From the sequence record PP988008.1: DNA of 51,468 nucleotides. The stretch is one strand, 5' to 3'. The translations under genes and the position numbers were made by a program. The notes beneath the pieces are model-generated. The model did no database searches and was not told the DNA's origin. It worked only from the letters and a program-made list of their open reading frames with translations. Position 1 is the first letter of the stretch. Every line of letters begins with the position of its first letter. The DNA is from Escherichia phage phiE31-2. Positions 6,717 through 44,893 of the stretch are shown piece after piece.

Positions 6717-7331
6717 TTAGTCATATTTTGATGCGTCTATAGCAAGTATTGATGAAGAATAATAAACCCCAAGCGGACCAGGCGTTTGAGCAACCTGCTT
6801 TGATATTGAGTAAATATTTGATCCAGATGCGCCGGATTGTGATTCAAATATCATGTGACCGCCAAGTTGAGGATTTGGAACGGAGTTTATTGCCGTTTGA
6901 AATGGCGTTACAGCGCATGTATAACCCAAATAAACATCAAATGTTATTCCGCTAACTGGTATTTGGTGAGCCTCTAAAGGCTTCATTTTTCCGTGGTATG
7001 TCATTTGACCAGCGGAATTATAAAACGCTATTCCGTGACTACCAGGACTTGTTACCATATCGCTAAAAGCGTAAACCCTAATCCATCCAGGGTTGTCCGT
7101 CCTATCAATCCTAAGTGCATGATAACCACCATTATTTATGTGAGAAAAAGCAGTGTATGCACGAGATCCCATTCTCACAAAGAAAAAGCATACACGATCA
7201 AATGGTATTGATGTTTGATAAATGGAGCCGTTATAAACCCCCATATCACCTCGATTAATTAAATTCACAGGCGTAAAATCAGGACTTAGCCAAATTGACC
7301 CATCCGGCTTTGTGATCTGCATTCCGTACAT
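6717..7331 (-). CDS. hypothetical protein, candidate receptor-binding module component
   Basis: 204 aa; ATG 2 nt after stop of upstream gene (TAAcATG) with GGGGG RBS; Gly/Ser/Asn-rich; convergent with J and co-transcribed with lipoprotein. Confidence 0.5.
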   Translation of the reverse strand: MYGMQITKPDGSIWLSPDFTPVNLINRGDMGVYNGSIYQTSIPFDRVCFFFVRMGSRAYTAFSHINNGGYHALRIDRTDNPGWIRVYAFSDMVTSPGSHGIAFYNSAGQMTYHGKMKPLEAHQIPVSGITFDVYLGYTCAVTPFQTAINSVPNPQLGGHMIFESQSGASGSNIYSISKQVAQTPGPLGVYYSSSILAIDASKYD

Positions 7332-7332
7332 G

Positions 7333-7608
7333 TTACCCCCAAAACGTATATATATATCTTGACTCGCCAGCATTAAGACCAGACCACGAAACAGTATTCC
7401 CGCTAACGTTTATTGTTGGTGCTCCCCAGTTAACTCCAGCCCACGTCTGCGTTCCAATATATCCAGCCTTTAATGTTTTTCCTGGTGGCTGATTGTAATA
7501 TGTCTTGCTTCCTGATGGTTGTGTGAATCTATCCAGGAAGAATACAGGAGTTAATAAACCAGTAACATCCCTTCCTTGTTCGTCGTAAATTGCGTAACCG
7601 TATGCCAT
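7333..7608 (-). CDS. hypothetical protein, candidate receptor-binding module component
   Basis: 91 aa; ATG overlaps stop of lipoprotein gene (TAATG); N-terminus resembles that of the downstream 204-aa protein. Confidence 0.5.
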   Translation of the reverse strand: MAYGYAIYDEQGRDVTGLLTPVFFLDRFTQPSGSKTYYNQPPGKTLKAGYIGTQTWAGVNWGAPTINVSGNTVSWSGLNAGESRYIYTFWG

Positions 7609-7877
7609 TATTTGCACTCCACATAATCAAAATTATCCTCGCTTTGCCACCTGTGAACGAAAGTTACATATTTTTGTGATGGAGCTACGCGATAGTGTTT
7701 TTCACCGAATCTGTTTTCGCGCACAGCGTTTATTTTCACAGGATAGCTATCATTTACAGGGAATGTTTTCACCATGTATGAGCCAACGCAATCAACCTCT
7801 TTATAGCCCCCATCCATTGACGCAGAACAACCAGTCAGGGCAACGGCGGCAATCAAAACGGCTATTAACTTTTTCAT
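7608..7877 (-). CDS. outer-membrane lipoprotein, putative superinfection exclusion (Cor/Llp-like)
   Basis: Signal peptide MKKLIAVLIAAVALTGC with lipobox LTGC; AAGGAGA RBS; adjacent to tail-tip genes. Confidence 0.6.
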   Translation of the reverse strand: MKKLIAVLIAAVALTGCSASMDGGYKEVDCVGSYMVKTFPVNDSYPVKINAVRENRFGEKHYRVAPSQKYVTFVHRWQSEDNFDYVECK

Positions 7878-7910
7878 TTTTGGTGTCTCCTTAGTTGTTG
7901 TTGGTTGCAA

Positions 7911-7952
7911 CTATACACGATCTTGCGGTGGGCGTTTAGCAAAAAGTGCCAC
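7911..7952 (-). promoter_or_regulatory. conserved-motif promoter-like element (lipoprotein/RBP operon)
   Basis: Minus strand TGGCACTTTTTGCTAAAC - 18 nt - TATAGT, then RBS and ATG of lipoprotein. Confidence 0.5.
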
Positions 7953-8062
7953 TCTGTTCTTTTTGTTCTCCTGCGTTCTCAAATCTGCGGAGGCTTAAAT
8001 TTAGCTCAAAATGTGAGCAACAATAGAGCGATATACATACAGATAAATATATATACATACAT

Positions 8063-8190
8063 ATAAATCAATAAGTTAGTAGTATATATATTTATATTTG
8101 TTCTTTATTGTTATCTATGTTTTGTGTGATTTTGTGTGTCTGGTGATTTTTCTGTGATTATGTATGTGTCAGTGGTTGTGTGTGTCTATA
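8063..8190. repeat. AT-rich conserved core plus GTGAT(T) iteron cluster, copy A
   Basis: ~50-bp core (ATAAATCAATAAGTTAGT...ATTTATATTTGTT) ~85-90% identical by eye to 30350..30399; followed by repeated GTGATTTT/GGTGATTTTT units. Confidence 0.6.
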
Positions 8191-8322
8191 TATCTATATC
8201 CGGCGCAAATTGAGGAGCAAGAGAACAAAAAGACAACAAAGATATTTATCAATCACTTACATGTAAGTTTTGTTATCAAAGATGTCTAGAACGTTGTTAG
8301 AACAGAAAAAACAAAATAACTA

Positions 8323-8350
8323 TTGACTAAACGCATCAAATAGCTACAAT
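8323..8350 (+). promoter_or_regulatory. sigma70-like promoter for recombination operon
   Basis: TTGACT - 16 nt - TACAAT about 30 nt upstream of exonuclease ATG. Confidence 0.55.
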
Positions 8351-8379
8351 GCAGACATACCAACCAATGAGGGCAAATC

Positions 8380-9441
8380 ATGAATAAGTTTATGGCGTAC
8401 ACCAGCGAAGAAATGAGCAACGAGCTTTATCACAATCCAGAAGCGTGGACTGCTGATTATGTTAGCGGTTCAAGCCTGGCAGAGATTTACAGCACATGCC
8501 CGGCAGCGTGGAAGTTCAAGCCGCGTGACGACAAGAGCAAGGCGCTAGTTTTTGGTACGCAGTCGCATACCAATTTTGAAAGCAAGGAGCTTTTCGAAAA
8601 AACCTATCGCCGTGCGCCAGCGCCAGAAGACTTTAAGGATCTGATAACCAGCCAAACGGAGCTTGCTGCAAAGCTAAAATCATTTGGCCTGAAAGGTACA
8701 ACAGGAAAGACTTACCCTGAACTTATAAAAATGTTGGTTGACTGCGGAGAAGACCTTAACGTCATGTGGTTAATCGACATGATCGCAGAAAGTCAAGCCA
8801 GGGCCGATGGGGTTCAGTTAATCGAAGCTAAAGATTACGATGCGTGCGTGGCAATGCGCCAGGTTCTGGAATCAATACCGGAACATAACGCATGTATGAA
8901 TAGCAAGACGGCACAACGTGAATTATCGTTATTCGGTGAAATCAACGGCGTAAAAGTCAAAGTGCGATGCGATCACGTTGACGTAACAAAGAACGTGACA
9001 GCAACTCTTATTGATGGTTACGATGAAAAAGGTCAGCCGATTTGCCGCGATATTATTTATCCAGAAGCTATTGTGATCACTGACTACAAAACAACAATGA
9101 GCGCTAATCCGGTTGAGTTTATGCGCCTGGCTTACAATCACGGCTATTATTTGAAAATGGCGTTGCAATGTGATTTATTCAGAAAAGCGTATCCAGAAGA
9201 AAAGCGACCTATAGTTGTGCGACTGTTAGCGCAAGAGAAGAAAGAGCCTTATTTGCCGTTGGCTTTCCGCATGAACAGCGAGCAATTGAAGATCGGGCGC
9301 ATTCAGTACATGAGCGTAATTAACCAGTTTGCCATGTGCCAGCAACATGACGTTTGGCCTTCGTATTCAAACGGTGAGCCGGAGGTTTGCCTTGATACTC
9401 CTGATTGGGTGCGACGCCAGTTTAAGCAATATCTTATTTAA
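8380..9441 (+). CDS. PD-(D/E)XK-family recombination exonuclease
   Basis: 353 aa; nuclease-like D..(ITDYK) motif; precedes Erf and SSB genes; strong upstream sigma70-like promoter. Confidence 0.65.
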   Translation: MNKFMAYTSEEMSNELYHNPEAWTADYVSGSSLAEIYSTCPAAWKFKPRDDKSKALVFGTQSHTNFESKELFEKTYRRAPAPEDFKDLITSQTELAAKLKSFGLKGTTGKTYPELIKMLVDCGEDLNVMWLIDMIAESQARADGVQLIEAKDYDACVAMRQVLESIPEHNACMNSKTAQRELSLFGEINGVKVKVRCDHVDVTKNVTATLIDGYDEKGQPICRDIIYPEAIVITDYKTTMSANPVEFMRLAYNHGYYLKMALQCDLFRKAYPEEKRPIVVRLLAQEKKEPYLPLAFRMNSEQLKIGRIQYMSVINQFAMCQQHDVWPSYSNGEPEVCLDTPDWVRRQFKQYLI

Positions 9442-9846: not shown

Positions 9847-10503
9847 ATGAAACTATCAGAGCAATTCGACAAGGTTTTACCAGCACTGCATAAGGCGCGC
9901 AGTTTGTTTGTAAAGGTGAAGAAGGATAAGCAAAATACGCACCTTAAAAACCGTTACGCAACGCTTGATGCCGTACTTGATGCAATCACTCCAGCATTGA
10001 ATGATAACGAGCTAATGTTGATGCAGGACATGATTGAAAGCGAACAACCAAACAGAATCAAGGTTGAAACAACAGTTCTTCATGTTTCCGGTCAGTGGGT
10101 GAAATTTTACGCAGAGCTACCAATCGTTAAAAACGATCCTCAAGGTGTCGGATCCGCATTCACATACGCTCGTCGTTATGCAGCCGCAGCTGCATTTGGC
10201 TTAAGCCAGGCAGACGACGACGCACAAATTGCTGTTAAATCTGCAAACGACTGGAAGCGTGACATTGAAAAATGCGAAAGCGTAAACGAATTACAAGAAG
10301 TGCTCAAATCAGCATGGAAGGCAAGCGATCCGGCAAGCAAGCAGGTAATTAAAGAGCATTACGAAAAACGTAAAGCAGAGCTTGAGATCGGAAAAGCACG
10401 AGGATTTAATCCAGCGCAACCAAAACAAAATCTTGCCGCTCAAGACGTTGACACAAAAAACGACGAGCAAGTAAAATCACAAAGCATAACTGACTTTGAA
10501 TAA
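9847..10503 (+). CDS. Erf-family single-strand annealing protein
   Basis: 218 aa; N-terminal [11 protein letters not shown] and ...[14 protein letters not shown]...DDD motifs typical of Erf-type SSAPs; next to exonuclease and SSB. Confidence 0.7.
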
Positions 10504-13674: not shown

Positions 13675-13953
13675 TTAAGCCCACTCCCTAAGTTTTTGAT
13701 CCGTCACAACGGTTCTGCTATTGAATAATTTCGCATCGTAATTATCATTAATGATGCGAGCGTTCACAAAATAACCATCATTTTTCTCTACAATTTCCTC
13801 TCCTTCTTCCGTTACAGATACAACAGTGTAAGTGTTCCCGATAACGTCGAGAAGAATTGCATCCTGAATGGATTCGTTTTCGTTCCATTCAATTTCTTCA
13901 AGAAAGGCAGAAAACTCTGCCTTGTCTGCAAATTTCAGTGTTAAATCTCTCAT
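13675..13953 (-). CDS. hypothetical protein
   Basis: 92 aa; ATG overlaps stop of tail fiber gene (TAATG). Confidence 0.5.
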   Translation of the reverse strand: MRDLTLKFADKAEFSAFLEEIEWNENESIQDAILLDVIGNTYTVVSVTEEGEEIVEKNDGYFVNARIINDNYDAKLFNSRTVVTDQKLREWA

Positions 13954-15908
13954 TATACAATTTCCCCCAATTGATGATCTGTTAATGCCTTATGCCAGAT
14001 CCTAAAGTTTCTAATGTGTCCAAACAAATGGCGCTCTCCAGTTCCTGTTTGTCCGCCAAACCTGATATTTTTATCTCCTGTTACGCCTATGTAATCGCAG
14101 TATGAATCAGACACTGCTATAGCATTGGTGACAACATGAAATTTGCCATCAGATTTTGCAATGCATCCAAAAGTGGATTTTTTTGCAAACACATCAGATG
14201 CCGCACTATTAATATATGCCCCAGCAGGCGTTGATAAACTCATGTATAATTTTCCACTTCCTCTATTTATTGCCGCAATTGCTGATTGACCAGTATTTGC
14301 AGCAGCTATATCCCAAACACGAGGGGCAGCATTTGGAGCAACATCCCAACACTTACTAACCTCAAGCAAAAAAGTAAACGGCAATTTATATAGGTTGTTT
14401 TTTGTTGGAATGCTAACAAGATCGCTAGCTCTCGTTGTTGGCATTGAAGTTATAATAAATGACGATGCTGTATTTCCAAGTTCAATTTGCGGCGTAGCCA
14501 TCGTTAACGTTGAATCAGAATAAAATGGTTCGTTGTTAATTTTATTAGTCATGTAAAATGCACAATTAACAGTGTCAACATTTTTATTGGCTGTATATGT
14601 CGCTTGATAATACATCCATTCGCCATCCTGTTCCACTTTAGCGGTTATAAGTGAAGTGTCGCCACTTACCGATGCAACCAAAGTATCAAGATCCAAATAA
14701 GAATCAGCAGAAAATGTATCTACTCCATCAATAATTGTAGACACTCGAAGCCTGCATCTTGCTTTAGCACCTTTAACCCTACAAGAAAAGGTGAAACTTT
14801 CACCTGACACCAAAGGGAATCTATCGGCTGTAACAACTCCATGAACGGTATAACCTCCAGTAGTACCAACAATACTTTCTACAGGGGTGACTGTAGCGTA
14901 GTTAAAACCACGATCATCCGTTCCGAAAGTTTTATTTAAAGAAGAATGAATAGTCCAAGAATCTGTTTTATTTGAGTTTCTTAGATAGTTAGTTCTTTGC
15001 CCTTCGATTAAAAGACCTTCTTTTTCAAAACGAGGTTCGTCAATCTCCGCAACAGTCAATACACCTGATTTGTTAATATAAGTTGCTGTTGAAGCGCGTG
15101 AAAATGTAACTACTTTATCTGTTGGCATAGTTATAACATCATTACCAACTGTTATTTTTTTGTAACCAGGCGCAAAGCCTGTAATCATCTCAAGAGAATC
15201 ATTAAACGGTATCCATACATCCGGCAGCGGTTGAAGCACATCTTTGTAAGGTTCTCCAGCTTGTTTTGCATATTCCTCCGCTTGATCGCGCGCAGTTTCA
15301 GCACCTGTCTTTGCGGTGTTAGCTGCATCGCGCGCTGATTCTGCGGCAGCCTTTGCACTTTCCGATCCAGTCTTTGCAGTGTTAGCTGCATCGCGCGCGG
15401 ATTCAGCAGCAGTCTTTGCAGAATCAGCGCCTTTCTTACTGTTTTCTGCATTTGTTGCGCTTATCTTCGCGTTATTCTCGCTAGTTTTAGCGGCATTCTG
15501 GCTTGCTGCGGCCGCAGCAGCATCGCTCTTTACGTCAGCCTGTATCTGTTGAAGTTTATCCCAATCAAATGTTTCGATGATCTCAATGAATCTGGCAAAT
15601 TCAGTTTCTTTACCCTGGTAATATCGCAGTGTTTCAGCGACATCTTGCGCCAGGCCATCAACAGTTATTGAATCATGAAGCATGATCAGATAGTTTGTCT
15701 TTGCTACAACAGCTCCGCCAGTAGTAATGGCGCGAATGCTTGTGTCGCTAATAACCTCAGTGATTACAGCGGCTTGCATTGGATTTGTTAAGAAAAATAT
15801 TGTTGCACCAGGGCGAATGAGTGTTAGCTGTTCGCGCCATTTTGTGCCGTATCCAGTTATATAACCTTGCGCGTCCATTGACGCCTGTCCGGTTCTGTAA
15901 ATTGCCAT
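13953..15908 (-). CDS. lateral tail fiber protein
   Basis: 651 aa from ATG with GGAGAAA RBS; N-terminal fiber-attachment-like region, Ala-rich repeated [15 protein letters not shown] motifs, beta-rich C-terminus. Confidence 0.75.
15290..15435. repeat. imperfect ~63-bp tandem repeats inside lateral tail fiber gene
   Basis: TCTTTGCRGTGTTAGCTGCATCGCGCGC...GATTC..GC.GCAG.CTTTGCA repeated with 63-bp period (Ala-rich protein repeats). Confidence 0.7.
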
Positions 15909-16007
15909 GCGTTTTCTCCAATGTTGCATGTTAATGTCAATGCAGATAATAGCATTTGCTAAGGCAAAAAAAAACCCCGCAATGCGGGGTAAAAGTAGCA
16001 GTGACAT

Positions 16008-16940
16008 TTAGAGAAGAGATTCAGGTTTGTAAACCTTCCTCTCTATCCCTTGCCTGTAATTATCATTAATCGGCATCATAATTTCAAGACCTCTTTCCTC
16101 TGCGGCAATGATAGCGTCACGATCTGTGCTCTTACAGACAACTCGCATTCTTCTGTTGCCTTTATACCTGTAAGCCACAATCTCAATGTTAGTTGCATCA
16201 AAGCAGGCCCAAACCTCTTGACCAGTTGCAAGATGGATGTGTTGCGCATCAATCCAGTCAACGCAAAGATAGATCGCCTTATCTGTGCTTCCTGTTCTCA
16301 CAATCGACCCGCGCGTGTAGTCCTTTGCGAGAAAAGACTTATTACCTTCTTCATCAATGAAAAGCACATTGCACATTTCATCATCAATTTCATCTGAATG
16401 TACCAGGTAACATGGGAGCGCGTGAATGTATCGACCATCTTTTACGCCGCAATCATAATGACTATCTTCAGGCGGGTATATTCCTTCATATGTGCTTAAC
16501 GGCGTGCGATCAAATTTTAGTGTTTTTGACATAACGCGCTCGCAGCATTCATGGCTTGCCTGTTTCCCAAACGAATAACCAGAATCACGAGATACTCGCT
16601 TATTTGACTTGATCCTATAGTCCTGCGGAACTTTTCCAAGAAAGCGGCCCAAAATATTGATCACTTCGCTGTAAGGTTCTCCGGTTAGCTTCATGATCCA
16701 ACCAATTCCAGTATCATTACCGCACACGTTGCAGATCGCACCGCCATCGCCTTTTTTATCGCCAAGTTTATCAGTCCACCTGAAGCGATCCTTTCCGCCG
16801 CAGTGGGGGCAAGATTGATGCTTGCCGTTAAAAACTTCATTTGGAAGACCGCAAATACTTTGTAGCGCCTCACGCCACAATCCTTGCATATATGGGAGAA
16901 CATCTTCCTTTTGATAAACCATAAAGTTTTCGTTATTCAT
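16008..16940 (-). CDS. DNA primase (zinc-binding CHC2-like plus TOPRIM-like)
   Basis: 310 aa from ATG with GAGGTG RBS; CPHCGG...C..C zinc-binding motif; acidic TOPRIM-like segment. Confidence 0.75.
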   Translation of the reverse strand: MNNENFMVYQKEDVLPYMQGLWREALQSICGLPNEVFNGKHQSCPHCGGKDRFRWTDKLGDKKGDGGAICNVCGNDTGIGWIMKLTGEPYSEVINILGRFLGKVPQDYRIKSNKRVSRDSGYSFGKQASHECCERVMSKTLKFDRTPLSTYEGIYPPEDSHYDCGVKDGRYIHALPCYLVHSDEIDDEMCNVLFIDEEGNKSFLAKDYTRGSIVRTGSTDKAIYLCVDWIDAQHIHLATGQEVWACFDATNIEIVAYRYKGNRRMRVVCKSTDRDAIIAAEERGLEIMMPINDNYRQGIERKVYKPESLL

Positions 16941-16952
16941 ATACACCTCAAA

Positions 16953-16988
16953 CAAAAAAGCCTGACAGATGATAACATCATGCCAGGC
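16953..16988 (-). terminator. hairpin with T-run between HTH gene and primase (leftward)
   Basis: GCCTG...CAGGC stem followed by TTTTTTG on minus strand, directly upstream of primase RBS. Confidence 0.4.
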
Positions 16989-16995
16989 ATTGTTT

Positions 16996-17469
16996 TTAGC
17001 AATTAGTGCTTTCAGGTTTATACAGGAATCCGCCAGGTTCATAATCTGACATTCTTACCACTCGCAACATTTCACGCTTATCACATCTCTTTGTGAGCGG
17101 TTTACCATTGGAATCAAATCGCAGATCTGGACGGCAGAATGACGCGCGATAGCCTTGACAACCATATTTCTTGTAATCGTTATGCACCTTTTGAGCGCCA
17201 GCGGCTGAAATCATACCGCGAACACGCCACTGATTTACAGTTTGCTGGCTAACGTTAAGACGTTTTGCCATTGCTGACACACTTCCGTAATACTCAATAA
17301 GGATGTCAAGTCGCGCTTTTAGCCCGGCGCGCACCTCATCTTTTAGAACATAATAACCTGTCGGTCGCTTGCGCTTCTTCTTGTCCTTGCCTCGTCTTGT
17401 TCCGTTATTGCCATTAATTGTGCGCTTGTCAATCTTGCCTGTTGATACTGCGATTCTTTTCTCTTTCAT
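16996..17469 (-). CDS. HTH DNA-binding protein, putative transcriptional regulator
   Basis: 157 aa; basic N-terminus (KDKKKRKR) and helix-turn-helix-like SAMAKRLNVSQQTVNQWRVRG; divergent from helicase gene. Confidence 0.6.
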   Translation of the reverse strand: MKEKRIAVSTGKIDKRTINGNNGTRRGKDKKKRKRPTGYYVLKDEVRAGLKARLDILIEYYGSVSAMAKRLNVSQQTVNQWRVRGMISAAGAQKVHNDYKKYGCQGYRASFCRPDLRFDSNGKPLTKRCDKREMLRVVRMSDYEPGGFLYKPESTNC

Positions 17470-17483
17470 TATTCATTCTCCAA

Positions 17484-17525
17484 TAGCATTTTTTGTTAAA
17501 CGATGATTTAATGATTGTGTATTAT
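17484..17525 (+). promoter_or_regulatory. conserved-motif element in helicase/HTH divergent region
   Basis: TAGCATTTTTTGTTAAAC - 18 nt - TATTAT; on the opposite strand a TTGAGT-16-TATAAT promoter for the HTH gene overlaps. Confidence 0.5.
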
Positions 17526-17558
17526 ACACGCCAAATGGCATTACTCAAAGGTTTTAGA

Positions 17559-19598
17559 ATGATTCCAAACATTGAAAAGCAAATATCAGCACTTGGTGAA
17601 GCGGTAATTAAATCCATTCAGGAGCGATTCACTGTTGGCGAGATTGTGCCTTACCCTTACCAGTGCATTGCATACGCTGAGATCGCAAAGCGTATGAAAA
17701 ATTATGAGCATCCATTCTTTGTTAAAGCGTCCGTATCTGCTGGCAAAACATTGATGTTTGCAATGGTTGCTCACCAGTGCCGGAAAATGGGCTTAAAAAT
17801 GATGGTACTTGCTCGCCAGGCTGAGATTGTGGATCAGGATTCTGAAGAGATAACAAATCTTGGTGTGCCGAACTCCATCTATTGTGCAGGACTGAAGACA
17901 AAAAGCGCATACTTTCCGATCGTTGTTGGTTCTGAGGGAACTGTAGTTAATGGACTTTTTAAAGCGCTTGGCGACTATGTTCCGCACGTTATCGGGATTG
18001 ACGAGTGTCACCAGGTGGATTGGGAAGACCTTGCCGACGCAATAGAGAAAGACGAATCATTTTTACAAATGACTACGAAGAAAGGCGAAAAAGTACCAAA
18101 TCCAGATTATGACATAGCGAGCGATAACGAATGCGAAGAGTTCCTGATTGGTGAGGATGGCTTGCCAATGGAGGGAACAGGTCGCACACAATACACTGTC
18201 ATTATCATGGAAATGATGCGCCGCTGCCGGAAAACATATGGTCATGAACTACGCATATTTGGTATGACTGGTTCTGAGTTTCGCGGCGTAGTCCCGATCC
18301 TGGTAGAAGACAAAAAACAAAAAGGATTTTGGCGTGAACAGGTTACTAATATTGACACCAACTACCTGATCAAATTCGGTTCTGTTGTGCCAACAAATTT
18401 TGGCGACGTTGGCGATCTAGGGTATGACCTTTCAGAGTTTGAGGCATCCAGCGAGGATGGCGTTGCAGACTTTGACGCTAAAACGCTTCGCAGGATGGAA
18501 CAAAAAATTCATGAAGAAGCGACCATGACAAAGAGCATCATGGCGAAAGTTCACGAGATCTGTAAAAACCGCAACGGCGTACTTGTGACATGTGCAGGAG
18601 AAAGGCATTGCAAAGAGGCAGCGGCAGCGTTGCCACTTGGAACTACTTACAGGATCATTACTGGTAAGACTGGCGACAATCAGCGCAAGGAGTGGTTGAG
18701 GGAAGCATACGAAGGGAAGGTAAAATACATCTTCCAGGTTCAGGCGCTAACTACTGGCGTTAACGTGCCGTTTTGGGATACGTCTGTTATTCTGCGTAAG
18801 ATTGGATCGCTAACTTTGCTGATTCAGCTTTTAGGACGAGGAATGCGACTTCTTAAGAAATGGCATAAGGAACAAGGCTTCAAGAAAGATGATCACCTTG
18901 TTATGGATTTTTCAGGAACGATGGACGAGTTAGGTGAGCTTTATTTTGATCCGATACTTGAACAGGCGCAACATCAGAAGCGATTCAGGAACGGTAAAGA
19001 TCCGAAGCCTTGTCCTGTTTGCGGAACTCTTAACAGCTATTACGCTCGTCGTTGTATGCACGTAGACGAAAACGGAAACAGATGTGAGTGGTTCTTTAAA
19101 TTCAGGACATGTGATGATCAGATTGACCCGCGCACTAAAAAGATTATTCAGCGCGGTTGTGGAACGAAAAATGATATTGCGGCCAGGGTATGCAGACATT
19201 GCGACATGTCATTGATTGACCCTAACGAGAAATTAAGCGGAAAGCACTACACAAAAAACGACTGGTTCCAGGTGCAATCTTTCTCGGTTGACATGACGAA
19301 AAACCAGAAAGGGATAATATTTAATTATGAGCTTTCCGATGGCATAGATACTTTCAGAGCGCGGGAAATATTTTTCCCTGAATCAGAAAGCCAGATTTGC
19401 CGCGCAAAATGGAGAAATGTTGCTCTTAAGCACATACCGGATCGCCGTATTGCTGGCATGGTGGCGAGCTATCGTAATGCACGAAAAATAATGCAATATG
19501 TGAATCACATCATGCCTCCATCGCGTGTTACTCACAGAAAGACTAGTAAGGGAGAAGATAATTTGTACAAGAAGGACTTTAATTATGGCAATGACTGA
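17559..19598 (+). CDS. DNA helicase (superfamily 2, DEAD/DEAH-like)
   Basis: Walker A SAGKT, motif II DECH, C-terminal Zn-ribbon-like CxxC pairs; start uncertain (ATG 17559 chosen downstream of promoter-like element, alternatives 17511/17535). Confidence 0.8.
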   Translation: MIPNIEKQISALGEAVIKSIQERFTVGEIVPYPYQCIAYAEIAKRMKNYEHPFFVKASVSAGKTLMFAMVAHQCRKMGLKMMVLARQAEIVDQDSEEITNLGVPNSIYCAGLKTKSAYFPIVVGSEGTVVNGLFKALGDYVPHVIGIDECHQVDWEDLADAIEKDESFLQMTTKKGEKVPNPDYDIASDNECEEFLIGEDGLPMEGTGRTQYTVIIMEMMRRCRKTYGHELRIFGMTGSEFRGVVPILVEDKKQKGFWREQVTNIDTNYLIKFGSVVPTNFGDVGDLGYDLSEFEASSEDGVADFDAKTLRRMEQKIHEEATMTKSIMAKVHEICKNRNGVLVTCAGERHCKEAAAALPLGTTYRIITGKTGDNQRKEWLREAYEGKVKYIFQVQALTTGVNVPFWDTSVILRKIGSLTLLIQLLGRGMRLLKKWHKEQGFKKDDHLVMDFSGTMDELGELYFDPILEQAQHQKRFRNGKDPKPCPVCGTLNSYYARRCMHVDENGNRCEWFFKFRTCDDQIDPRTKKIIQRGCGTKNDIAARVCRHCDMSLIDPNEKLSGKHYTKNDWFQVQSFSVDMTKNQKGIIFNYELSDGIDTFRAREIFFPESESQICRAKWRNVALKHIPDRRIAGMVASYRNARKIMQYVNHIMPPSRVTHRKTSKGEDNLYKKDFNYGND

Positions 19599-24797: not shown

Positions 24798-26381
24798 TTA
24801 CCCCAGCAATGTTGGATTTACGAAAACAACGCCATTAATCACACAAATATAATTTCTTTCCTCAAGCATCGGAAGCAGTTGCGTTTCCATTCGCTTCATT
24901 ACGCCAGCCTGACCAACAAACGGCTTAACTTTTCGTGCAGCCTCATATATGGCGCGAACATTCAAGATTCCCTTATTAGCCTTTCCGTGTCGAGTGATGA
25001 TCTCGATTAGTTTACCCATTTCAGCATCATCACCAGCGTAGCCAGAAGCGTTGGCGGCGCTAATGTATGTTTTGCTCAACTCGCTAAACATCAGCAGTGC
25101 TTCCTGAACGGTTTCAACCTCAATCTCTTTCGACTTTTGAGGGTATCCGCAAGGATTAAACCAATTGCGGATAGTGTGCAAAACCGAAGCAATCCTGATC
25201 ACCTGCTTATCCATTTTGCCAAGCGCACCGCGCAGCATTGTATGCGAATACTTTCCGCCATCGGCAAGGTGCGGTTCCATCTCCTGACGAGCCATGTTAA
25301 GAACTCGCATTGCTGATTTGCTGATCTTAAGCTGGATGTTTGATTCGCTCATGATGTTATGGATCAGCTTAAAATATTGGCTTTTCAGTTCCCCATCAAC
25401 AGGCTCATAAGTCGAATCACCGTTATCATCAACAAACTTTCTACGGCCTAAAAATGATTCCTCACGCACAAGCAAATAACGCTCACTTACACCGATACCG
25501 CGCGATCCTGCATCCATGATGGCATTGATTGTTTCATCCTGGGCAATTACCGCCATACAGCCAAGAGCTTTAAAACTCATATTGTTGTCAGCGTTTGCAC
25601 GAGCTATAGAAACATGACCATGATCCCATGCTTTCAGCACAAGTTCGCTGTTGGTTTTACGTTCGCTATTGGCATATGTCAGACCTAAAAGGCTGTTAAT
25701 ACTCGTTGCCTCGTCTGAAATTACAGCAAAGTTACCCTGGCGATTATTGATTCTTGCAAGTCCTTCCGGCGTGGTGTCGGACACAGGGAAAACAATGTCA
25801 CACATCTTTTCCAGCTTTTCTTCAAGATCTTCTTTCTCCTGGTATAGCGATTCCATATCAGCGCCGGAGCGCTCGCTTTTCATCTCTTTTGCAAGACCTG
25901 CCAACTTTGCCTGAATCTTTTTTCTTTCCTTCTTTCGCTGATCGTTAATTCTTTCCACTTCCGCAACCATTGGAGCAAGTGCCAGGCTGTTAACGGCAGA
26001 TTTACCAGTTGAAGGAGGTTGGCTTGTAACAACGTACAGAGCGGTTGGTTGATCCGTTCCGTGATACTCAACAGTGAAGCGTCCAAGCATTGCAGCAGAC
26101 ACGCATCCGATAAAATGCATATATGCCGATGATTCAGGGAATTGAACAGATCGAGCAATGTTGCGCGCCAACTTTCCAACAACATCAACATCATTGCCAA
26201 GAGAAATTACAGGGTAGCGATCGTTTCCGTTATTAACATCATTAACCTCACCCCAAAAGCTGGACGATTGACGGTATCCGTTTGCCTGAATGGACACGCG
26301 CACCGGAGACAATCCTTGCGCATCAGCTAATTCGATAATTTGTTTTGGTGTTAGTTTATTGGTTTCAAACGAAAAATTCAT
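24798..26381 (-). CDS. P-loop NTPase, putative replication-associated protein
   Basis: 527 aa from ATG with AAGGAG RBS; Walker A-like QPPSTGKS; coiled-coil K/E-rich segment; large early leftward gene. Confidence 0.6.
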   Translation of the reverse strand: MNFSFETNKLTPKQIIELADAQGLSPVRVSIQANGYRQSSSFWGEVNDVNNGNDRYPVISLGNDVDVVGKLARNIARSVQFPESSAYMHFIGCVSAAMLGRFTVEYHGTDQPTALYVVTSQPPSTGKSAVNSLALAPMVAEVERINDQRKKERKKIQAKLAGLAKEMKSERSGADMESLYQEKEDLEEKLEKMCDIVFPVSDTTPEGLARINNRQGNFAVISDEATSINSLLGLTYANSERKTNSELVLKAWDHGHVSIARANADNNMSFKALGCMAVIAQDETINAIMDAGSRGIGVSERYLLVREESFLGRRKFVDDNGDSTYEPVDGELKSQYFKLIHNIMSESNIQLKISKSAMRVLNMARQEMEPHLADGGKYSHTMLRGALGKMDKQVIRIASVLHTIRNWFNPCGYPQKSKEIEVETVQEALLMFSELSKTYISAANASGYAGDDAEMGKLIEIITRHGKANKGILNVRAIYEAARKVKPFVGQAGVMKRMETQLLPMLEERNYICVINGVVFVNPTLLG

Positions 26382-26409
26382 TGATGATAACTCCTTTTTG
26401 ATGCGGCAA

Positions 26410-26452
26410 TAATACCGCACCAATGCTACCCGCATTTAACAAAAAATGCTAT
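26410..26452 (-). promoter_or_regulatory. conserved-motif promoter-like element
   Basis: Minus strand TAGCATTTTTTGTTAAATG - 18 nt - TATTAT upstream of P-loop gene. Confidence 0.5.
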
Positions 26453-29705: not shown

Positions 29706-29974
29706 TTCTTGATCTCCTCAGCAATAAACTTCAGGACTTTGCGCAAAAACACTTCATTATTGATGGTCGCTGGCAATTCCTCTTTCACTTCTTGCGGCAG
29801 GTAAACGTTGCCATGCCAGGTTAAGCAATCGTAGTTGATACGATAAGAGCAAAGCCACTCGCAATCGTTATCCGCTTCCCAAATGCAGAGTTGCAGAACA
29901 TCGCCGAAGTCTTCAACAGTCAGGTCCAGACCATGACGCTTGGCGAAATTGAAAGTGGTTTTGCTGATGTTCAT
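29702..29974 (-). CDS. hypothetical protein
   Basis: 90 aa from ATG with CAGGAGA RBS downstream of promoter-like motif. Confidence 0.5.
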   Translation of the reverse strand: MNISKTTFNFAKRHGLDLTVEDFGDVLQLCIWEADNDCEWLCSYRINYDCLTWHGNVYLPQEVKEELPATINNEVFLRKVLKFIAEEIKK

Positions 29975-30012: not shown

Positions 30013-30055
30013 AATATACCAGGTTATTCCGATCGTGTTTTAACAAAAAGTGCTA
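30013..30055 (-). promoter_or_regulatory. conserved-motif promoter-like element
   Basis: Minus strand TAGCACTTTTTGTTAAAAC - 18 nt - TATATT upstream of 29702..29974. Confidence 0.55.
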
Positions 30056-30269
30056 TTTGCTGACTGGTTATTATTCCATCTATTCCATTAATCAGGAATA
30101 ACAGGAATAAATCATTCGCGATCACCTGGATTGTGAGACTTTGAGTTTGATCAATTTTAATCAGTTGATTAACTTTTTGTGTGGAGGGGATAGAGAAACG
30201 CGGTCCTCTTGCGTCCTTTCCGGCAATCCTGGCGCGCGCATCTGTTATTTCTGTTCCCTGTGTTATCAC
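30024..30269 (-). CDS. possible first leftward early protein
   Basis: GTG start 7 nt after GGAGG; ~81 aa; 3' end reads through the promoter-like motif of the next gene. Confidence 0.3.
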   Translation of the reverse strand: MITQGTEITDARARIAGKDARGPRFSIPSTQKVNQLIKIDQTQSLTIQVIANDLFLLFLINGIDGIITSQQIALFVKTRSE

Positions 30270-30349
30270 AATCAAGCCTCCGCACTTTTAGATAACAGAT
30301 TCGGCGTTCATCAACAAAAAGAACAAAATAAATTTTATATATATACCCA

Positions 30350-30520
30350 TAAAATCAATAAGTTAGTTATATATGTATTTATATTTGTTATTTACTGTTG
30401 AGCTTGTTCTATGGGTATATGGTGGTGTTGTATTGTTTGTGGTGATATGTATGTGTGATTGTATATTTTTTAATCAATGGTGATGCGTGGTGATTTTTGT
30501 ATGTATATATATGGGTATGG
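30350..30520. repeat. AT-rich conserved core plus GTGAT(T) iteron cluster, copy B
   Basis: Homologous core and four or more GTGAT units; lies in the divergent early control region. Confidence 0.6.
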
Positions 30521-30645
30521 GGGAATCCTCCGTCAACCAAGTCAACAAGGTCATTTTTAACAGAGAAACCAATGTCTTAACTGAAGCATTTTGTTATCTT
30601 TAAACGCGCCACATGCCAAAAATTGTTATTAAAACACAAAATATA

Positions 30646-30674
30646 TTGACATGTAGGAAAGGCAAGGCAATAAT
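30646..30674 (+). promoter_or_regulatory. sigma70-like rightward early promoter
   Basis: TTGACA - 17 nt - AATAAT upstream of first rightward early gene. Confidence 0.5.
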
Positions 30675-30710
30675 GCATCCAGTTTAAACGCAACAAAAGG
30701 AGTAGACGCC

Positions 30711-31181
30711 ATGAATGAAGAAAATGTTAGTTCTATGTCGCGTAGTGAGTTCTGCGATATGCTTCGCGACTTGGGCGCGGCAATTGGTAGCGGCGAGCGT
30801 AACAATGTATTCATGCCAGCACTTTTCTTGTGCGCTAACGTGGAAAACGGCGACGCAATTACAGCCTCGTACATGCGCCAGGTGGTCAACCGTGTTCCAG
30901 AAGTAAAGCAAAAAGGCGTGATCAGCATTAAGCGAAAGGTGACTGATGAGGGTGATGGCTTTGTGTTTACGCTCACTGAAGCCAAAAGCAAGCCTCGCGT
31001 TCTGACTGGTGAAGATATAGCGAAACTTGAAATCAAGTGGCGAGCAAAGTTTATCGCTCAACTTCTGAAAACTCAGCCGAGAATCAGCGACCTGGAAGGC
31101 GAGCGCCTGGAGGGTGCAGCAATCGCACTTGAGCGAATGAATGAAATGCTTAGCGAGATGGTGAAGATGGGGGATGAATAA
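30711..31181 (+). CDS. hypothetical early protein
   Basis: 156 aa with AAAGGAG RBS; first rightward gene after AT-rich control region. Confidence 0.55.
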   Translation: MNEENVSSMSRSEFCDMLRDLGAAIGSGERNNVFMPALFLCANVENGDAITASYMRQVVNRVPEVKQKGVISIKRKVTDEGDGFVFTLTEAKSKPRVLTGEDIAKLEIKWRAKFIAQLLKTQPRISDLEGERLEGAAIALERMNEMLSEMVKMGDE

Positions 31182-31441
31182 TGAATAAGGCATTAATTGG
31201 AGTTTTGATTGCAATTGCTACCCTGACCGGATGCGAAAAGGCATCGGAATCAACAGTTGTCGTAGGAGTGGAGTCAGATTTTAAAGTCGGTCGCCTGTTT
31301 ACTGTTGATGGATGCACTGCGTACCGATTCTATGACAACGGTCGAGCAATCTATTACACCAATTGTAATGGCGCAACGGATAGCACATACCGCAGCGGCA
31401 AAAACGTAATGCACCAGCAAGTCACAACAGATATGAAATAG
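31181..31441 (+). CDS. early lipoprotein
   Basis: 86 aa; signal peptide with lipobox LTGC; TAATG overlap with upstream gene. Confidence 0.65.
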   Translation: MNKALIGVLIAIATLTGCEKASESTVVVGVESDFKVGRLFTVDGCTAYRFYDNGRAIYYTNCNGATDSTYRSGKNVMHQQVTTDMK

Positions 31442-31481
31442 CACTTTTTGTTAAAACGCCAGGTGCAAATCCTGGCATAAT
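31439..31481 (+). promoter_or_regulatory. conserved-motif promoter-like element
   Basis: TAGCACTTTTTGTTAAAAC - 18 nt (GCCAGG/CCTGGC) - CATAAT; TAG is stop of lipoprotein gene. Confidence 0.55.
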
Positions 31482-31513
31482 AGCCTCATCGAAACGAGAT
31501 TGAGGAAAACAAA

Positions 31514-44874: not shown

Positions 44875-44893
44875 CGTTTAACAAAAAATGCTA
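44875..44893 (+). promoter_or_regulatory. inverted copy of conserved motif upstream of major capsid gene
   Basis: CGTTTAACAAAAAATGCTA (reverse complement of motif) about 45 nt upstream of ATG; overlaps a TTGCAC-16-TATCAT promoter-like pair. Confidence 0.4.

What the first reader, a model, noticed from the sequence alone, without database searches (positions are those of the whole stretch)
30290..30710. Divergent early control region with the second iteron copy (copy B)
Leftward early genes (starting at 29974 or 30269) and rightward early genes (from 30711) diverge from this ~420-bp AT-rich region. It carries the conserved core (30350-30399), at least four GTGAT units between 30420 and 30500, a TTGACA-17-AATAAT promoter (30646-30674) and a partial motif-like TTGTTATTAAAAC. 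It is probably the main early regulatory hub and possibly an origin.
Basis: partly seen in the sequence, partly recalled or inferred. Interest (0 to 1): 0.6.

Follow-up and report, generated by a model that had tools for sequence, protein, structure and literature searches.

The report
Early-promoter control region of T1-like phage
This non-coding stretch of a T1-like coliphage holds a strong host-type early promoter preceded by the easiest-to-melt DNA in the genome, with an IHF site and short repeated words, and it is one of two sister copies that are the best current candidates for early-gene control regions and possibly the still-unknown replication origins of these phages.

Summary
The window is a complete Hanrivervirus (T1-like, Drexlerviridae) genome. 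The TTGACA-17-AATAAT promoter (30646-30674) is conserved in position across lineages and matches TLS's predicted P01, one of only three sigma-70-type promoters in such genomes. About 250-330 bp upstream lies a module shared with copy A (before the recE-like gene). It has an 82% A+T block, and the two copies are the two least stable duplex segments of the genome. It also has a perfect IHF consensus, triplets of TGTTNN words and a C-poor G/T tract. This layout is kept in T1, TLS and other genera. The short words change with lineage while the IHF consensus does not, which suggests a phage-encoded binder. The GTGAT units are not conserved. The 'leftward gene at 30269' is probably not a gene, so the non-coding region is about 650 bp. 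T1-like phages also start DNA packaging (pac) in this gap, about 100-200 bp to the left. My best reading is an IHF-organised early-promoter control module. A replication origin remains a serious, untested alternative. No structured RNA or small gene is supported.

The parts
30038..30058 (-). 21-nt direct repeat (ATAGCACTTTTTGTTAAAA) that precedes the first leftward gene (ATG at 29974). It marks the left boundary of the non-coding region.
   Evidence: 18 copies in the window against 0.2 expected. Known from TLS, function unknown (PMC11447400).
30059..30245 (.). Conserved non-coding block to the left of the finding. It contains a palindrome (TTATTCC/TATTCC ... GGAATAA x2, 30071-30110), a palindromic IHF-consensus match (30158-30170) and GATTGTGAGA (30129-30138). 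This is probably where the packaging start (pac) lies.
   Evidence: Conserved even in pSf-1-type genomes, with no codon periodicity (12:9:9). The haarsle and G29-2 records start at window-equivalent 30184 and 30192. T1 and TLS are numbered from the packaging end inside the equivalent gap. SU57's PhageTerm end lies in the same untranslated region.
30243..30266 (+). Triplet of TGTTNN words (TGTTAT, TGTTCC, TGTTAT) at 9-nt spacing.
   Evidence: In pSf-1 the same place holds TGTTAT x4. TGTT[ACT][CT] occurs 7 times against 2.1 expected in the gap, p 0.002.
30292..30325 (+). The same words in inverted orientation (ATAACA at 30292, AACAAAAAGAACA around 30320) and a CGGCG box (30302-30306).
   Evidence: GAACA/AAACA arrays occupy this position in other lineages.
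30313..30412 (.). AT block (82% A+T), the second least stable 100-bp duplex segment of the genome. It contains (TA)5 at 30336-30345, a perfect IHF consensus AATCAATAAGTTA at 30353-30365, and the inverted repeat ATATACCCATA (30341-30351) / TATGGGTATAT (30410-30420).
   Evidence: z 4.5-4.8 at 50-200 bp windows. (IHF consensus). (consensus letters kept while the N positions vary among relatives). (inverted repeat).
30386..30410 (+). Second word triplet (TGTTAT, cTGTTg, TGTTCT) at 10- and 9-nt spacing, directly after the AT block.
   Evidence: The same 10/9 or 11/9 spacing occurs in copy A and in L181 and L183.
30384..30520 (+). G/T tract (78% G+T, 3.6% C) with GTGAT at 30442, 30455, 30480 and 30490, ending in (TA)4 at 30504-30511.
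   Evidence: the only two plus-strand tracts with at least 82% G+T in 60 nt are this one and copy A. Also.
30567..30579 (+). Proximal IHF-like site AACCAATGTCTTA (one mismatch), about 105 bp upstream of the predicted transcription start. It corresponds to the perfect site TATCAATCACTTA in copy A.
   Evidence: Perfect sites at this position occur in several lineages of both gaps.
30592..30635 (+). Two TTGTTAT words (30590-30597 and 30623-30629), including the 'partial motif' TTGTTATTAAAAC at 30623-30635, followed by an A-rich UP-like stretch up to the -35 hexamer.
   Evidence: This is not a copy of the 21-nt repeat because the ATAGCAC half is missing.
30646..30674 (+). Sigma-70 early promoter TTGACA-17-AATAAT. 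Predicted transcription start near 30681, Shine-Dalgarno AAGGAG at 30697-30702, ATG at 30711 (DUF7174 protein).
   Evidence: 11 of 12. (a promoter of at least 9 of 12 matches at the same relative position in 17 of 21 gap-B lineages, 11 of them at 10 or more). (TLS P01). (DUF7174).
7878..8379 (+). Sister region (copy A) upstream of the recE-like exonuclease. Sub-elements: AT block 8031-8130; IHF site 8066-8078, bracketed by a 14-bp inverted repeat (8043-8056 / 8082-8095); TGTTNN triplet 8099-8123; G/T tract 8091-8180 with GTGAT at 8126, 8143 and 8154; CCGGCG at 8200-8205; AGAACA words from 8222; second IHF site 8247-8259; promoter TTGACT-16-TACAAT at 8323-8350; ATG at 8380.
   Evidence: The promoter is conserved in 14 of 15 lineages and equals TLS P51.

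Best explanation
The region is the right-hand two thirds of a roughly 650-bp non-coding control region. It contains the host-RNA-polymerase early promoter for the first rightward genes and an upstream architectural module that controls it.

Shown by sequence and comparison:
- A near-consensus sigma-70 promoter with an A-rich upstream stretch sits 37 bp before the gene.
- An IHF-like site lies about 105 bp upstream of the predicted start.
- 250-330 bp upstream there is an extremely AT-rich, (TA)n-containing block with a perfect IHF consensus.
- Arrays of 6-7-nt TGTTNN words in both orientations flank that block, and a C-poor G/T tract follows it.
- The same module, in the same order and orientation, precedes the recE-erf-ssb promoter (copy A).

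Inferred mechanism:
- Host RNA polymerase fires these promoters immediately after infection.
- IHF bends the DNA at one or both sites.
- A phage-encoded protein then occupies the word arrays. The words differ between T1, TLS and this genus, whereas the IHF consensus does not.
- Together they fold the upstream DNA into a complex that sets the strength and timing (activation, then shut-off) of the two early operons.
- The easily melted block absorbs or passes on the negative supercoiling that transcription generates.

The later genes on both sides use the separate 21-nt repeat. That makes this gap the hub of the early-to-middle switch.
For: - Promoter: 11 of 12 match. A promoter of at least 9 of 12 matches holds the same position in 17 of 21 gap-B lineages (11 of them at 10 or more) and 14 of 15 gap-A lineages. 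[quoted passage not shown]
- Coupling to the promoter: order, orientation and distance of the module relative to the promoter are fixed in both copies and across genera.
- IHF: there are 10 perfect consensus sites in the genome against 4.7 expected, and 4 of them lie in or next to the two gaps. The consensus letters persist while the N positions vary between lineages.
- Words: TGTTNN words are enriched over local composition (p 0.002 and 0.012). Lineage-specific versions concentrate in the gaps: T1 TGTAACA/TGTTACA 6 of 6, TLS GTGAACA 4 of 8, this window TTGTTCT and TGTTATC 5 of 12 each. Some lie right next to the -35 hexamer.
- Transcription layout: the 21-nt repeats flank the gap and point outward. 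The first plus-strand copy is at 31438, so the first rightward genes depend on this promoter alone.
- Candidate regulator: a Cro-like HTH protein is encoded in the third early operon.
- Selection: the non-coding module is at least as conserved as neighbouring genes. It is 96-98% identical in close relatives whose 3.5-kb flanks are 91-94% identical.
Against: - No transcription-start data exist for any T1-like phage in the literature I could search.
- The AT/IHF block lies 190-330 bp upstream, which is far for sigma-70 control.
- The third early promoter (17521-17548) works without such a module.
- Perfect IHF sites are absent from about half of the lineages.
- A Keio screen of the TLS-like phage LL5 did not recover ihfA or ihfB, so IHF is not essential there (PMC7229145).
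- The protein that would bind the words is unidentified.
- Being the least stable DNA in the genome and flanked by repeated words fits an unwinding element of an origin at least as well.
Confidence: 0.5

Rival explanations
1. The shared module is a replication origin, and the two copies are a pair of origins or an origin plus a cis-acting partner. The (TA)n/AT block is the unwinding element. IHF bends it. A phage protein bound to the TGTTNN arrays melts it and loads the DUF3987 helicase and the P4-alpha-type primase. Transcription from the adjacent strong promoter supplies negative supercoiling. This could hold in addition to a promoter-control role.
For: - The two cores are the two least stable duplex segments of the genome at every window size from 30 to 200 bp (z about 4 at 30 bp, 4.5-5.4 at 50-200 bp).
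- An IHF consensus sits inside the AT block, flanked by word triplets at 9-11-nt spacing in both orientations.
- The words are lineage-specific, as expected for sites that co-evolve with a phage initiator.
- No origin is known for T1-like phages (PMC11447400; PMC7718038).
- Two-site precedents exist. SPP1 oriL/oriR have direct repeats plus an AT-rich unwinding element (PMC6316719). P4 ori/crr have TGTTCACC arrays at two loci.
- The primase is homologous to the primase part of P4 alpha (E 2e-14).
- In the T1 and TLS annotations these are the two largest intergenic regions.
Against: - There are no iterons of classical length. Tandem-repeat search finds only weak arrays of two to three copies with 9-20-nt periods.
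- No DnaA box, and few GATC sites.
- No identifiable origin-binding protein. There is no homologue of P4 alpha's helicase or winged-helix domain and no informative solved-structure relative.
- The module always keeps a fixed orientation and distance to a promoter that reads away from it.
- pSf-1-type genomes combine a window-like copy A with a diverged copy B that lacks the IHF consensus, so the two copies are not tightly co-evolving.
- There is no similarity to any plasmid or E. coli sequence.
Confidence: 0.3
2. Copy B is part of the packaging recognition site, analogous to lambda cosB. The terminase small subunit binds the inverted word arrays. IHF bends the DNA between them, and the cut is made about 100-200 bp to the left.
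For: - T1's 2.8-kb terminal repeat starts at record position 1, inside the equivalent gap.
- The TLS pac cut was mapped to this gap (PMC11447400 section 16).
- SU57's PhageTerm end lies in the same untranslated region (PMC7718038).
- Two independent Hanrivervirus records start at window-equivalent 30184 and 30192.
- An IHF site between inverted repeats just inside the packaged end resembles the cosB layout (my own knowledge of lambda, not tested here).
Against: - The module exists in a second copy (A) 22 kb away, where no packaging start is known.
- The sequences nearest the mapped or assumed cuts (GATT/GTGAGA tracts at 30059-30245) are not shared with copy A.
- The exact cut in TLS was assigned by resemblance to P22 pac, not measured.
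- Record starts may be conventions rather than termini.
- The terminase genes lie about 8 kb away.
Confidence: 0.1
3. The G/T tract or the core encodes a product: a small non-coding RNA, or the 36-aa hydrophobic ORF at 30373-30483.
For: - A 36-codon ORF rich in Val/Leu/Phe/Cys is open in the tract.
- The minus-strand RNA folds somewhat better than shuffles (z -2.27).
Against: - No Rfam family matches anywhere in the window.
- The plus-strand RNA has z +0.57. The minus-strand signal comes from one inverted repeat whose arms are not conserved across lineages.
- The ORF has no Shine-Dalgarno sequence. It is absent from copy A (stop after 9 codons) and from pSf-1-type copy B, which differs by indels. 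A G/T-only tract encodes hydrophobic residues in any frame.
- No promoter precedes it.
Confidence: 0.04

Closest known systems
IHF-assisted phage and operon promoters (lambda pL, Mu Pe, ilvPG, narG; from my own knowledge)
   Same: A strong sigma-70 promoter with an IHF site roughly 90-110 bp upstream, further sites beyond the bend, and an AT-rich upstream region prone to destabilisation.
   Different: Here the main AT/IHF block lies 250-330 bp upstream. It is duplicated at a second promoter and is surrounded by arrays of lineage-specific 6-7-nt words for an unknown, probably phage-encoded, protein. IHF dependence is untested and was not seen for LL5.
SPP1 oriL / oriR (PMC6316719)
   Same: Two separated sequences of similar organisation in a lytic pac-type siphovirus, each with direct repeats plus an AT-rich unwinding element. 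The phage also carries an exonuclease, annealing-protein and SSB recombination module.
   Different: SPP1's repeats are bound by a known protein (gp38), and oriL lies inside gene 38. Here no binding protein is known, both copies are intergenic and upstream of early promoters, and replication function is untested.
Phage P4 ori / crr with type 1 repeats TGTTCACC (P4 record NC_001609)
   Same: Short words (TLS: TGTTCAC/GTGAACA; here: TGTTCT/TGTTAT) are arrayed at about 10-nt spacing in both orientations, next to AT-rich DNA, at two distant loci. The primase is homologous to the primase domain of P4 alpha.
   Different: There is no homologue of alpha's SF3 helicase or its C-terminal origin-binding domain. 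The words are shorter and more degenerate. T1 uses a different word (TGTAACA).
Iteron origins with an IHF site in the AT-rich region (pSC101, R6K gamma; from my own knowledge)
   Same: An AT-rich, easily melted block with an embedded IHF site, flanked by repeated binding sites.
   Different: There are no 17-22-bp iterons, no DnaA box and no adjacent rep gene.
Lambda cosB / pac recognition regions
   Same: Copy B lies just inside the probable packaging start and has an IHF site between inverted repeats.
   Different: A second copy exists far from any known packaging start. The cut position in this genus has not been measured.
TLS predicted promoters P01 and P51, and the 21-nt intergenic repeat (PMC11447400)
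   Same: The promoter at 30646-30674 is the positional equivalent of TLS P01, and the copy-A promoter of P51. The 21-nt repeat flanks the gap.
   Different: The TLS paper reports the promoters and the 21-nt repeat, but not the upstream duplicated AT/IHF/word module. It states that no iteron-like repeats were found.

Membership tests
Sigma-70 (host RNA polymerase) promoter | -35 and -10 hexamers close to TTGACA / TATAAT with a 16-18-nt spacer | tested here: met
   TTGACA-17-AATAAT, 11 of 12. Copy A is TTGACT-16-TACAAT, 10 of 12.
Sigma-70 (host RNA polymerase) promoter | Conserved at the same position upstream of the orthologous gene in relatives | tested here: met
   A promoter of at least 9 of 12 matches in 17 of 21 gap-B lineage representatives (11 at 10 or more) and 14 of 15 gap-A representatives. 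Equivalent to TLS P01 and P51.
Sigma-70 (host RNA polymerase) promoter | Mapped transcription start | not testable with these tools
   No transcriptome of a T1-like phage was found.
IHF binding site | Match to WATCAANNNNTTR with an A/T-rich stretch on the 5' side | tested here: met
   AATCAATAAGTTA at 30353-30365, preceded by tatatatatacccataa. The same 13-mer is at 8066-8078.
IHF binding site | Consensus positions conserved while the N positions drift | tested here: met
   N positions read TAAG, TGAG, TAGT, TGGT, TTAG, AGAG, TAGG and TATG at the core. The proximal site varies likewise, and the T1 group carries it on the other strand. A perfect site is present in about half of the lineages.
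IHF binding site | IHF binding or IHF dependence | not testable with these tools
   The only related datum is that the Keio screen of TLS-like LL5 did not recover ihfA or ihfB.
Iteron-type theta origin (pSC101 / R6K / lambda style) | AT-rich DNA unwinding element | tested here: met
   The two cores are the least stable duplex segments of the genome.
Iteron-type theta origin (pSC101 / R6K / lambda style) | Three or more direct repeats of about 17-22 bp (iterons) | tested here: not met
   Only weak arrays of 2-3 copies with 9-20-nt periods. The repeated units are 6-7-nt words.
Iteron-type theta origin (pSC101 / R6K / lambda style) | DnaA box | tested here: not met
   No TTWTNCACA in either gap.
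Iteron-type theta origin (pSC101 / R6K / lambda style) | Supports replication in cis | not testable with these tools
   Needs marker-frequency or plasmid-amplification experiments.
P4-type ori/crr system | Short octamer-type repeats in both orientations clustered at two distant loci | tested here: met
   Layout only. The gap-enriched words are TTGTTCT and TGTTATC (5 of 12 genome copies each in 2.2% of the genome). TLS has GTGAACA 4 of 8 and T1 has TGTAACA 6 of 6. P4's repeats were verified as TGTTCACC.
P4-type ori/crr system | Alpha protein: primase plus SF3 helicase plus C-terminal origin-binding domain | tested here: not met
   Only the primase domain has a homologue (E 2e-14). The DUF3987 helicase shows no similarity to alpha. 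Alpha's D5_N and Pox_D5 domains are absent here.
SPP1-type paired origins (oriL/oriR) | Two sequences of similar organisation: direct repeats plus an AT-rich unwinding element | tested here: met
   Copies A and B. SPP1 description in PMC6316719.
SPP1-type paired origins (oriL/oriR) | Origin-binding protein that recognises the repeats of both copies | not tested
   No candidate identified. I did not search for a gp38 homologue.
pac / cosB-type packaging recognition site | Lies at the mapped packaging start | tested here: inconclusive
   T1, TLS and SU57 place the start in the equivalent gap. In this genus there are only record starts at 30184 and 30192, to the left of the finding.
pac / cosB-type packaging recognition site | Single site per genome | tested here: not met
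   The module is present twice.
Structured non-coding RNA | Match to a known family, or a fold better than shuffles with conserved pairing | tested here: not met
   No Rfam hit. Fold z +0.57 and -2.27. The bracketing inverted repeats differ between lineages.
T1-like 21-nt intergenic repeat (aaATAGCACnnnTTGnTAAAA) | Both conserved halves (ATAGCAC and TAAAA) present | tested here: not met
   None of the 18 copies found with up to 2 mismatches lies in 30290-30710. TTGTTATTAAAAC resembles only the 3' half.

The most novel reading that the evidence does not exclude
The two modules are the long-sought replication origins of T1-like phages and work as a pair. Copy B, next to pac and the helicase operon, starts theta replication. 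Copy A, next to the recE-erf-ssb genes, acts like SPP1 oriR or P4 crr: it binds the same phage protein through the TGTTNN words and helps switch to recombination-driven concatemer synthesis. The adjacent early promoters both feed and are controlled by the same complex.
Probability: 0.25. Interest if true: 0.7.

Novelty: new variant of a known kind. Interest (0 to 1): 0.5.

Why it matters
T1-like phages (Drexlerviridae) are common laboratory contaminants and candidates for phage therapy. Even so, their early transcription programme and their replication origin are unknown. Recent genome papers say explicitly that no origin or iterons could be found.

This analysis defines two sister DNA modules that are conserved in layout from T1 to TLS to Hanrivervirus. 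They sit upstream of two of the three host-type promoters and contain the least stable DNA in the genome. They also combine a host-factor site (IHF) with lineage-specific words that imply a phage-encoded binding protein. One of them lies beside the packaging start.

That gives precise, short targets for experiments: deletions, plasmid amplification or transduction tests, protein pull-downs, and transcription-start and marker-frequency sequencing. These could settle how the phages start transcription, replication and packaging.

Tried and rejected
- A 15-nt exact scan of the viral contigs returned mostly chance hits. A 37-nt pattern returned only 7 loci. Anchoring on the DUF7174 gene found only 2 loci. 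Anchoring on recE and on the DUF3987 helicase worked.
- Structured RNA: no Rfam hit and unconvincing fold z-scores.
- Small genes: the 81-aa ORF 30024-30269 lacks codon periodicity and lacks a start in relatives. The 36-aa ORF in the G/T tract lacks a ribosome-binding site and is not conserved.
- GTGAT as an iteron: above local chance, but not conserved beyond close relatives.
- A leftward sigma-70 promoter in the core: only poorly spaced candidates, and none was reported by the scan.
- DnaA boxes, Chi sites and GATC clustering: absent or depleted.
- A third copy at the primase/helicase junction: absent.
- Similarity to plasmids or E. coli genomes: none.
- Solved-structure relatives of the helicase and primase: none informative.
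- P4 alpha helicase or origin-binding homology: none.
- A conserved hairpin bracketing the core: the arms differ between lineages.
- Concerted evolution of copies A and B: clear only in T1, mixed elsewhere.
- Literature on T1-like transcription maps or IHF dependence: nothing found. The LL5 screen argues against an essential role for IHF.
Full report
IDENTITY OF THE WINDOW. The 51,468-base window is a complete genome of a T1-like siphovirus of the genus Hanrivervirus (Drexlerviridae, Tempevirinae). A 3.5-kb stretch around the finding is 94% identical to Escherichia phage KarlJaspers, and 231 phage records match it. Genes run rightward from 30711 through the end of the window and on to about 6.7 kb (small early genes, terminase, head, tail). 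Leftward genes occupy 6717-7877, about 11.3-17.5 kb and about 24.4-29.97 kb. The phage encodes these replication and recombination proteins:

- a Zn-ribbon primase (16008-17042);
- a DUF3987 helicase (24798-26435);
- an SF2 helicase (17559-19598);
- an ERF recombinase (9847-10503);
- a Cro-like HTH protein (16996-17469).

THE OBSERVATION.

- The region is 67.9% A+T, against 56.0% for the genome.
- The 'conserved core' belongs to a 110-nt direct repeat shared with 8065-8174 (72% identity). An end-to-end alignment of the two gaps shows about 130 nt of homology.
- GTGAT occurs at 30442, 30455, 30480 and 30490. That is 4 observed against 0.96 expected from dinucleotide shuffles of the tract itself (p about 0.003). 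Copy A has 3 against 0.81 (p about 0.015).
- TTGACA-17-AATAAT lies at 30646-30674.
- TTGTTATTAAAAC lies at 30623-30635.

One correction concerns the boundary. The ORF 30024-30269 is annotated in KarlJaspers but not in pSf-1. It has no Pfam family. Its variable alignment columns fall 12:9:9 over the three codon positions. In pSf-1-type genomes it has no start codon. It is probably not a gene. The non-coding region therefore extends from the 21-nt repeat at 30038-30058 to the ATG at 30711, about 650 bp.

THE PROMOTER. The promoter is the most secure part.

- Among representatives of distinct lineages, a promoter matching at least 9 of 12 consensus positions occupies the same position before the first rightward gene in 17 of 21 gap-B sequences, and 11 of these match 10 or more. 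TTGAC(T/A/G)-16-TAnnAT stands before recE in 14 of 15 gap-A sequences.
[quoted passage not shown] They are P01 before gp01, P51 before the exonuclease, and P57 on the minus strand (PMC11447400 supplement). The first two are the positional equivalents of the promoters in gaps B and A.
- The third junction in this window (17469-17559) is compact and has no copy of the upstream element.
- The 21-nt repeat ATAGCACnnnTTGnTAAAA is known from TLS and T1, with unknown function. It occurs 18 times here against 0.2 expected. Its copies point outward on both sides of gap B, and the first rightward copy is at 31438. Hence the first two rightward genes (30711-31441) depend on the sigma-70 promoter alone.

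This supports the 'early hub' idea for the rightward direction. No sigma-70 promoter for the leftward direction was found inside the region.

THE UPSTREAM MODULE. From left to right, copy B contains:

- a TGTTAT/TGTTCC/TGTTAT triplet (30243-30266);
- the same kind of word inverted (ATAACA, AACAAAAAGAACA; 30292-30325);
- an 82% A+T block (30313-30412) with (TA)5 and a perfect IHF consensus AATCAATAAGTTA (30353-30365);
- a second word triplet at 10- and 9-nt spacing (30386-30410);
- a G/T tract with only 3.6% C (30384-30520) that holds the GTGAT words and ends in (TA)4;
- an IHF-like site with one mismatch (30567-30579), about 105 bp upstream of the predicted start;
- two TTGTTAT words and an A-rich stretch;
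- the promoter.

Copy A has the same order. There the core IHF site (8066-8078) is bracketed by a 14-bp inverted repeat, and a second, perfect IHF site lies at 8247-8259.

Three quantitative results stand out:

1. With nearest-neighbour stacking energies, the two cores are the two least stable duplex segments of the whole genome at window sizes of 30, 50, 100 and 200 bp (z about 4 at 30 bp and 4.5-5.4 at 50-200 bp).
2. Plus-strand tracts with at least 82% G+T in 60 nt occur only at these two places.
3. Four of the ten perfect IHF-consensus matches in the genome (4.7 expected) lie in or beside the two gaps.

COMPARATIVE EVIDENCE. I collected 44 loci anchored on recE (62-98% protein identity, including T1 and TLS) and 51 loci anchored on the DUF3987 helicase. 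I located gap B in each by the orientation switch of the 21-nt repeats.

- Conserved layout. Both gaps, across several genera, keep this order: word arrays, AT/(TA)n block, word triplet, G-rich or G/T tract, (TA)n, a CCGGCG-type box, inverted word arrays, a proximal IHF-like site, TTTTGTT, promoter. TLS retains both copies. The duplication therefore predates the split of these genera.
- IHF sites. The consensus letters persist while the four N positions vary (TAAG, TGAG, TAGT, TGGT, TTAG, AGAG, TAGG, TATG). In the T1 group the proximal site is on the other strand. This is the pattern expected for selection on the site. Even so, perfect matches are present in only about half of the lineages.
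- GTGAT and the G/T tract. The GTGAT words are not conserved, and the G/T tract is conserved in composition rather than sequence. It is absent from gap A of the T1 group.
- Enriched words. Unbiased k-mer counts show the strongest enrichment for (TA)n words, about 25-fold for TATATA. Lineage-specific short words are also enriched. In T1, all 6 genome copies of TGTAACA/TGTTACA lie in the two gaps, which make up 2.5% of the genome (p about 3e-10). In TLS, 4 of 8 GTGAACA/TGTTCAC copies do. Here, 5 of 12 copies each of TTGTTCT and TGTTATC do. T1 also has CGATTAACA three times in tandem just upstream of its -35 hexamer.

A word that changes with lineage inside a constant architecture, next to an unchanging host-factor consensus, argues for a phage-encoded DNA-binding protein. 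Its identity is unknown. A Cro-like HTH protein is encoded in the third early operon.

WHAT IT IS NOT.

- No Rfam family matches anywhere in the window.
- The plus-strand RNA of the module folds no better than shuffles (z +0.57). The minus strand reaches only z -2.27, through one inverted repeat. The inverted repeats that bracket the core differ between lineages and are often the word arrays themselves.
- The 36-aa hydrophobic ORF in the G/T tract has no ribosome-binding site. It is not conserved in copy A or in pSf-1-type copy B.
- The gaps contain no DnaA boxes and no Chi sites, and few GATC sites.
- There are no iterons of classical length.
- There is no similarity to plasmids or to E. coli genomes.

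- The T1 record annotates its 2.8-kb terminal repeat from position 1, which lies inside the equivalent gap.
- TLS is numbered from its pac cut. The cut was mapped by restriction fragments to this gap and assigned to 'AGATTT' by resemblance to P22 pac.
- For SU57, PhageTerm placed the end in the same untranslated region. The authors state that pac lies there in T1 and other T1-like phages.
- In TLS the assigned cut is about 200 bp to the left of the AT core.
- In this genus two independent records begin at window-equivalent 30184 (haarsle) and 30192 (G29-2). Both starts fall inside the conserved non-coding block 30059-30245. This is suggestive only, because I do not know how those starts were chosen.

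That block is not shared with copy A. It is conserved even in genomes whose sequence to the right is replaced by a diverged version. It is the better candidate for pac itself, and it lies just outside the finding.

MECHANISM. I rank three readings of the shared module.

(1) Early-promoter control module, confidence about 0.5. The fixed order, orientation and distance to a strong promoter in both copies and in all lineages fits this best. So do words right next to the -35 hexamer, an IHF-like site about 105 bp upstream, and the position at the centre of the outward-pointing 21-nt-repeat units. In this reading IHF bends the DNA, and a phage protein on the word arrays folds the upstream region to set the strength and timing of the two early operons. 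Evidence against:
- the distance of the AT block from the promoter;
- the lack of a module at the third early promoter;
- the missing IHF consensus in half of the lineages;
- the failure of a Keio screen with TLS-like LL5 to recover IHF genes.

(2) Replication origin or origin pair, about 0.3, and not exclusive of (1). In favour:
- the least stable DNA in the genome, with an embedded IHF site and flanking short repeats;
- the absence of any known origin in this family;
- two documented two-site precedents, SPP1 oriL/oriR and P4 ori/crr with TGTTCACC arrays;
- a primase homologous to the primase part of P4 alpha.

Against it:
- no long iterons and no DnaA box;
- no homologue of alpha's helicase or origin-binding domain;
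- copies A and B are not tightly co-evolving. T1's two copies resemble each other far more than any other genome's copy, but pSf-1-type genomes pair a window-like copy A with a diverged copy B.

(3) Packaging accessory site, like lambda cosB, about 0.1. This is attractive for copy B because of its position. It does not explain copy A.

NOVELTY AND VERDICT. The promoter and the 21-nt repeat are already described for TLS. I did not find the duplicated upstream module in any paper I could search, and the TLS paper states that no iteron-like repeats were found. I did not find the extreme duplex instability, the IHF sites or the lineage-specific word arrays described either. I could not read the original T1 genome paper, so an earlier mention cannot be excluded. 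I classify the module as a new variant of a known kind: an IHF-organised control region and/or origin. Interest is moderate. It would not overturn anything. It does turn three open questions about a classic phage family into short, testable DNA targets: the early switch, the origin and the pac site.

Noticed in passing
window 30059-30245: This non-coding block is strongly conserved, even in pSf-1-type genomes whose sequence from about 30247 rightward is replaced by a diverged version. It has no codon periodicity. It contains the palindrome TTATTCC/TATTCC...GGAATAA x2 (30071-30110), which T1, L183 and L213 also carry; TLS has TAGACC-N4-GGTCTA x2 at the same place. It also contains GATTGTGAGA (30129-30138), which resembles sequence near the T1 and TLS packaging ends. 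The haarsle and G29-2 records start at equivalents of 30184 and 30192. It is a likely operator plus pac region.
   Followed up: partly
window 30024-30269 (- strand): An ORF annotated as a hypothetical protein in phage KarlJaspers (bas06_0064) overlaps the 21-nt repeat and the conserved block. It shows no coding signature and is probably a mis-annotation.
   Followed up: yes
window-wide, e.g. 20001, 21021, 24267, 27110, 29161, 30038, 31438, 31901, 36406: There are 18 copies of the 21-nt repeat ATAGCACnnnTTGnTAAAA (0.2 expected). Sixteen lie between 17 and 36.4 kb and are oriented with transcription. Several are followed by a G+C-rich hairpin and then CATAAT(A), for example AAATAGCACTTTTTGTTAAAACGCCAGGTGCAAATCCTGGCATAATA at 31436-31482. 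A hairpin sitting in the would-be spacer of a promoter-like element is unusual. The two copies at 44876 and 48635 are antisense to the late genes.
   Followed up: partly
window 17469-17559: This is a third divergent junction, between the Cro-like/primase operon and the SF2 helicase. It is only about 90 bp long. It holds a back-to-back TTGAGT-16-TATAAT promoter (17548-17521, minus strand; the equivalent of TLS P57) and a degenerate 21-nt repeat (17483-17501, plus strand).
   Followed up: partly
phage records MG0656xx: About 20 records named 'Campylobacter phage' with host Campylobacter jejuni are 92-99% identical to this E. coli Hanrivervirus, including both non-coding modules. The host assignment looks doubtful, for example because of coliphage contamination of the lysates.
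   Followed up: no
window 30247-30645 versus L003/L177/L224 and L125: Gap B is mosaic. Otherwise similar genomes carry at least three different versions of the sequence between the conserved left block and the promoter (window type, pSf-1 type, L125 type). All keep the same order of elements.
   Followed up: partly
window 15292-15417 (within the - strand ORF 13953-16007): A 63-nt tandem duplication (84% identity) lies inside the large lectin-like (Laminin_G_3) tail-fibre-type gene.
   Followed up: no
L225 (T1) 410-440 and 120-135: T1's equivalent gap has three perfect tandem 10-nt units (CGATTAACA+C) just upstream of its -35 hexamer, and GATTACGATTACG further to the left. These T1-specific repeats have no counterpart in this window.
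   Followed up: no
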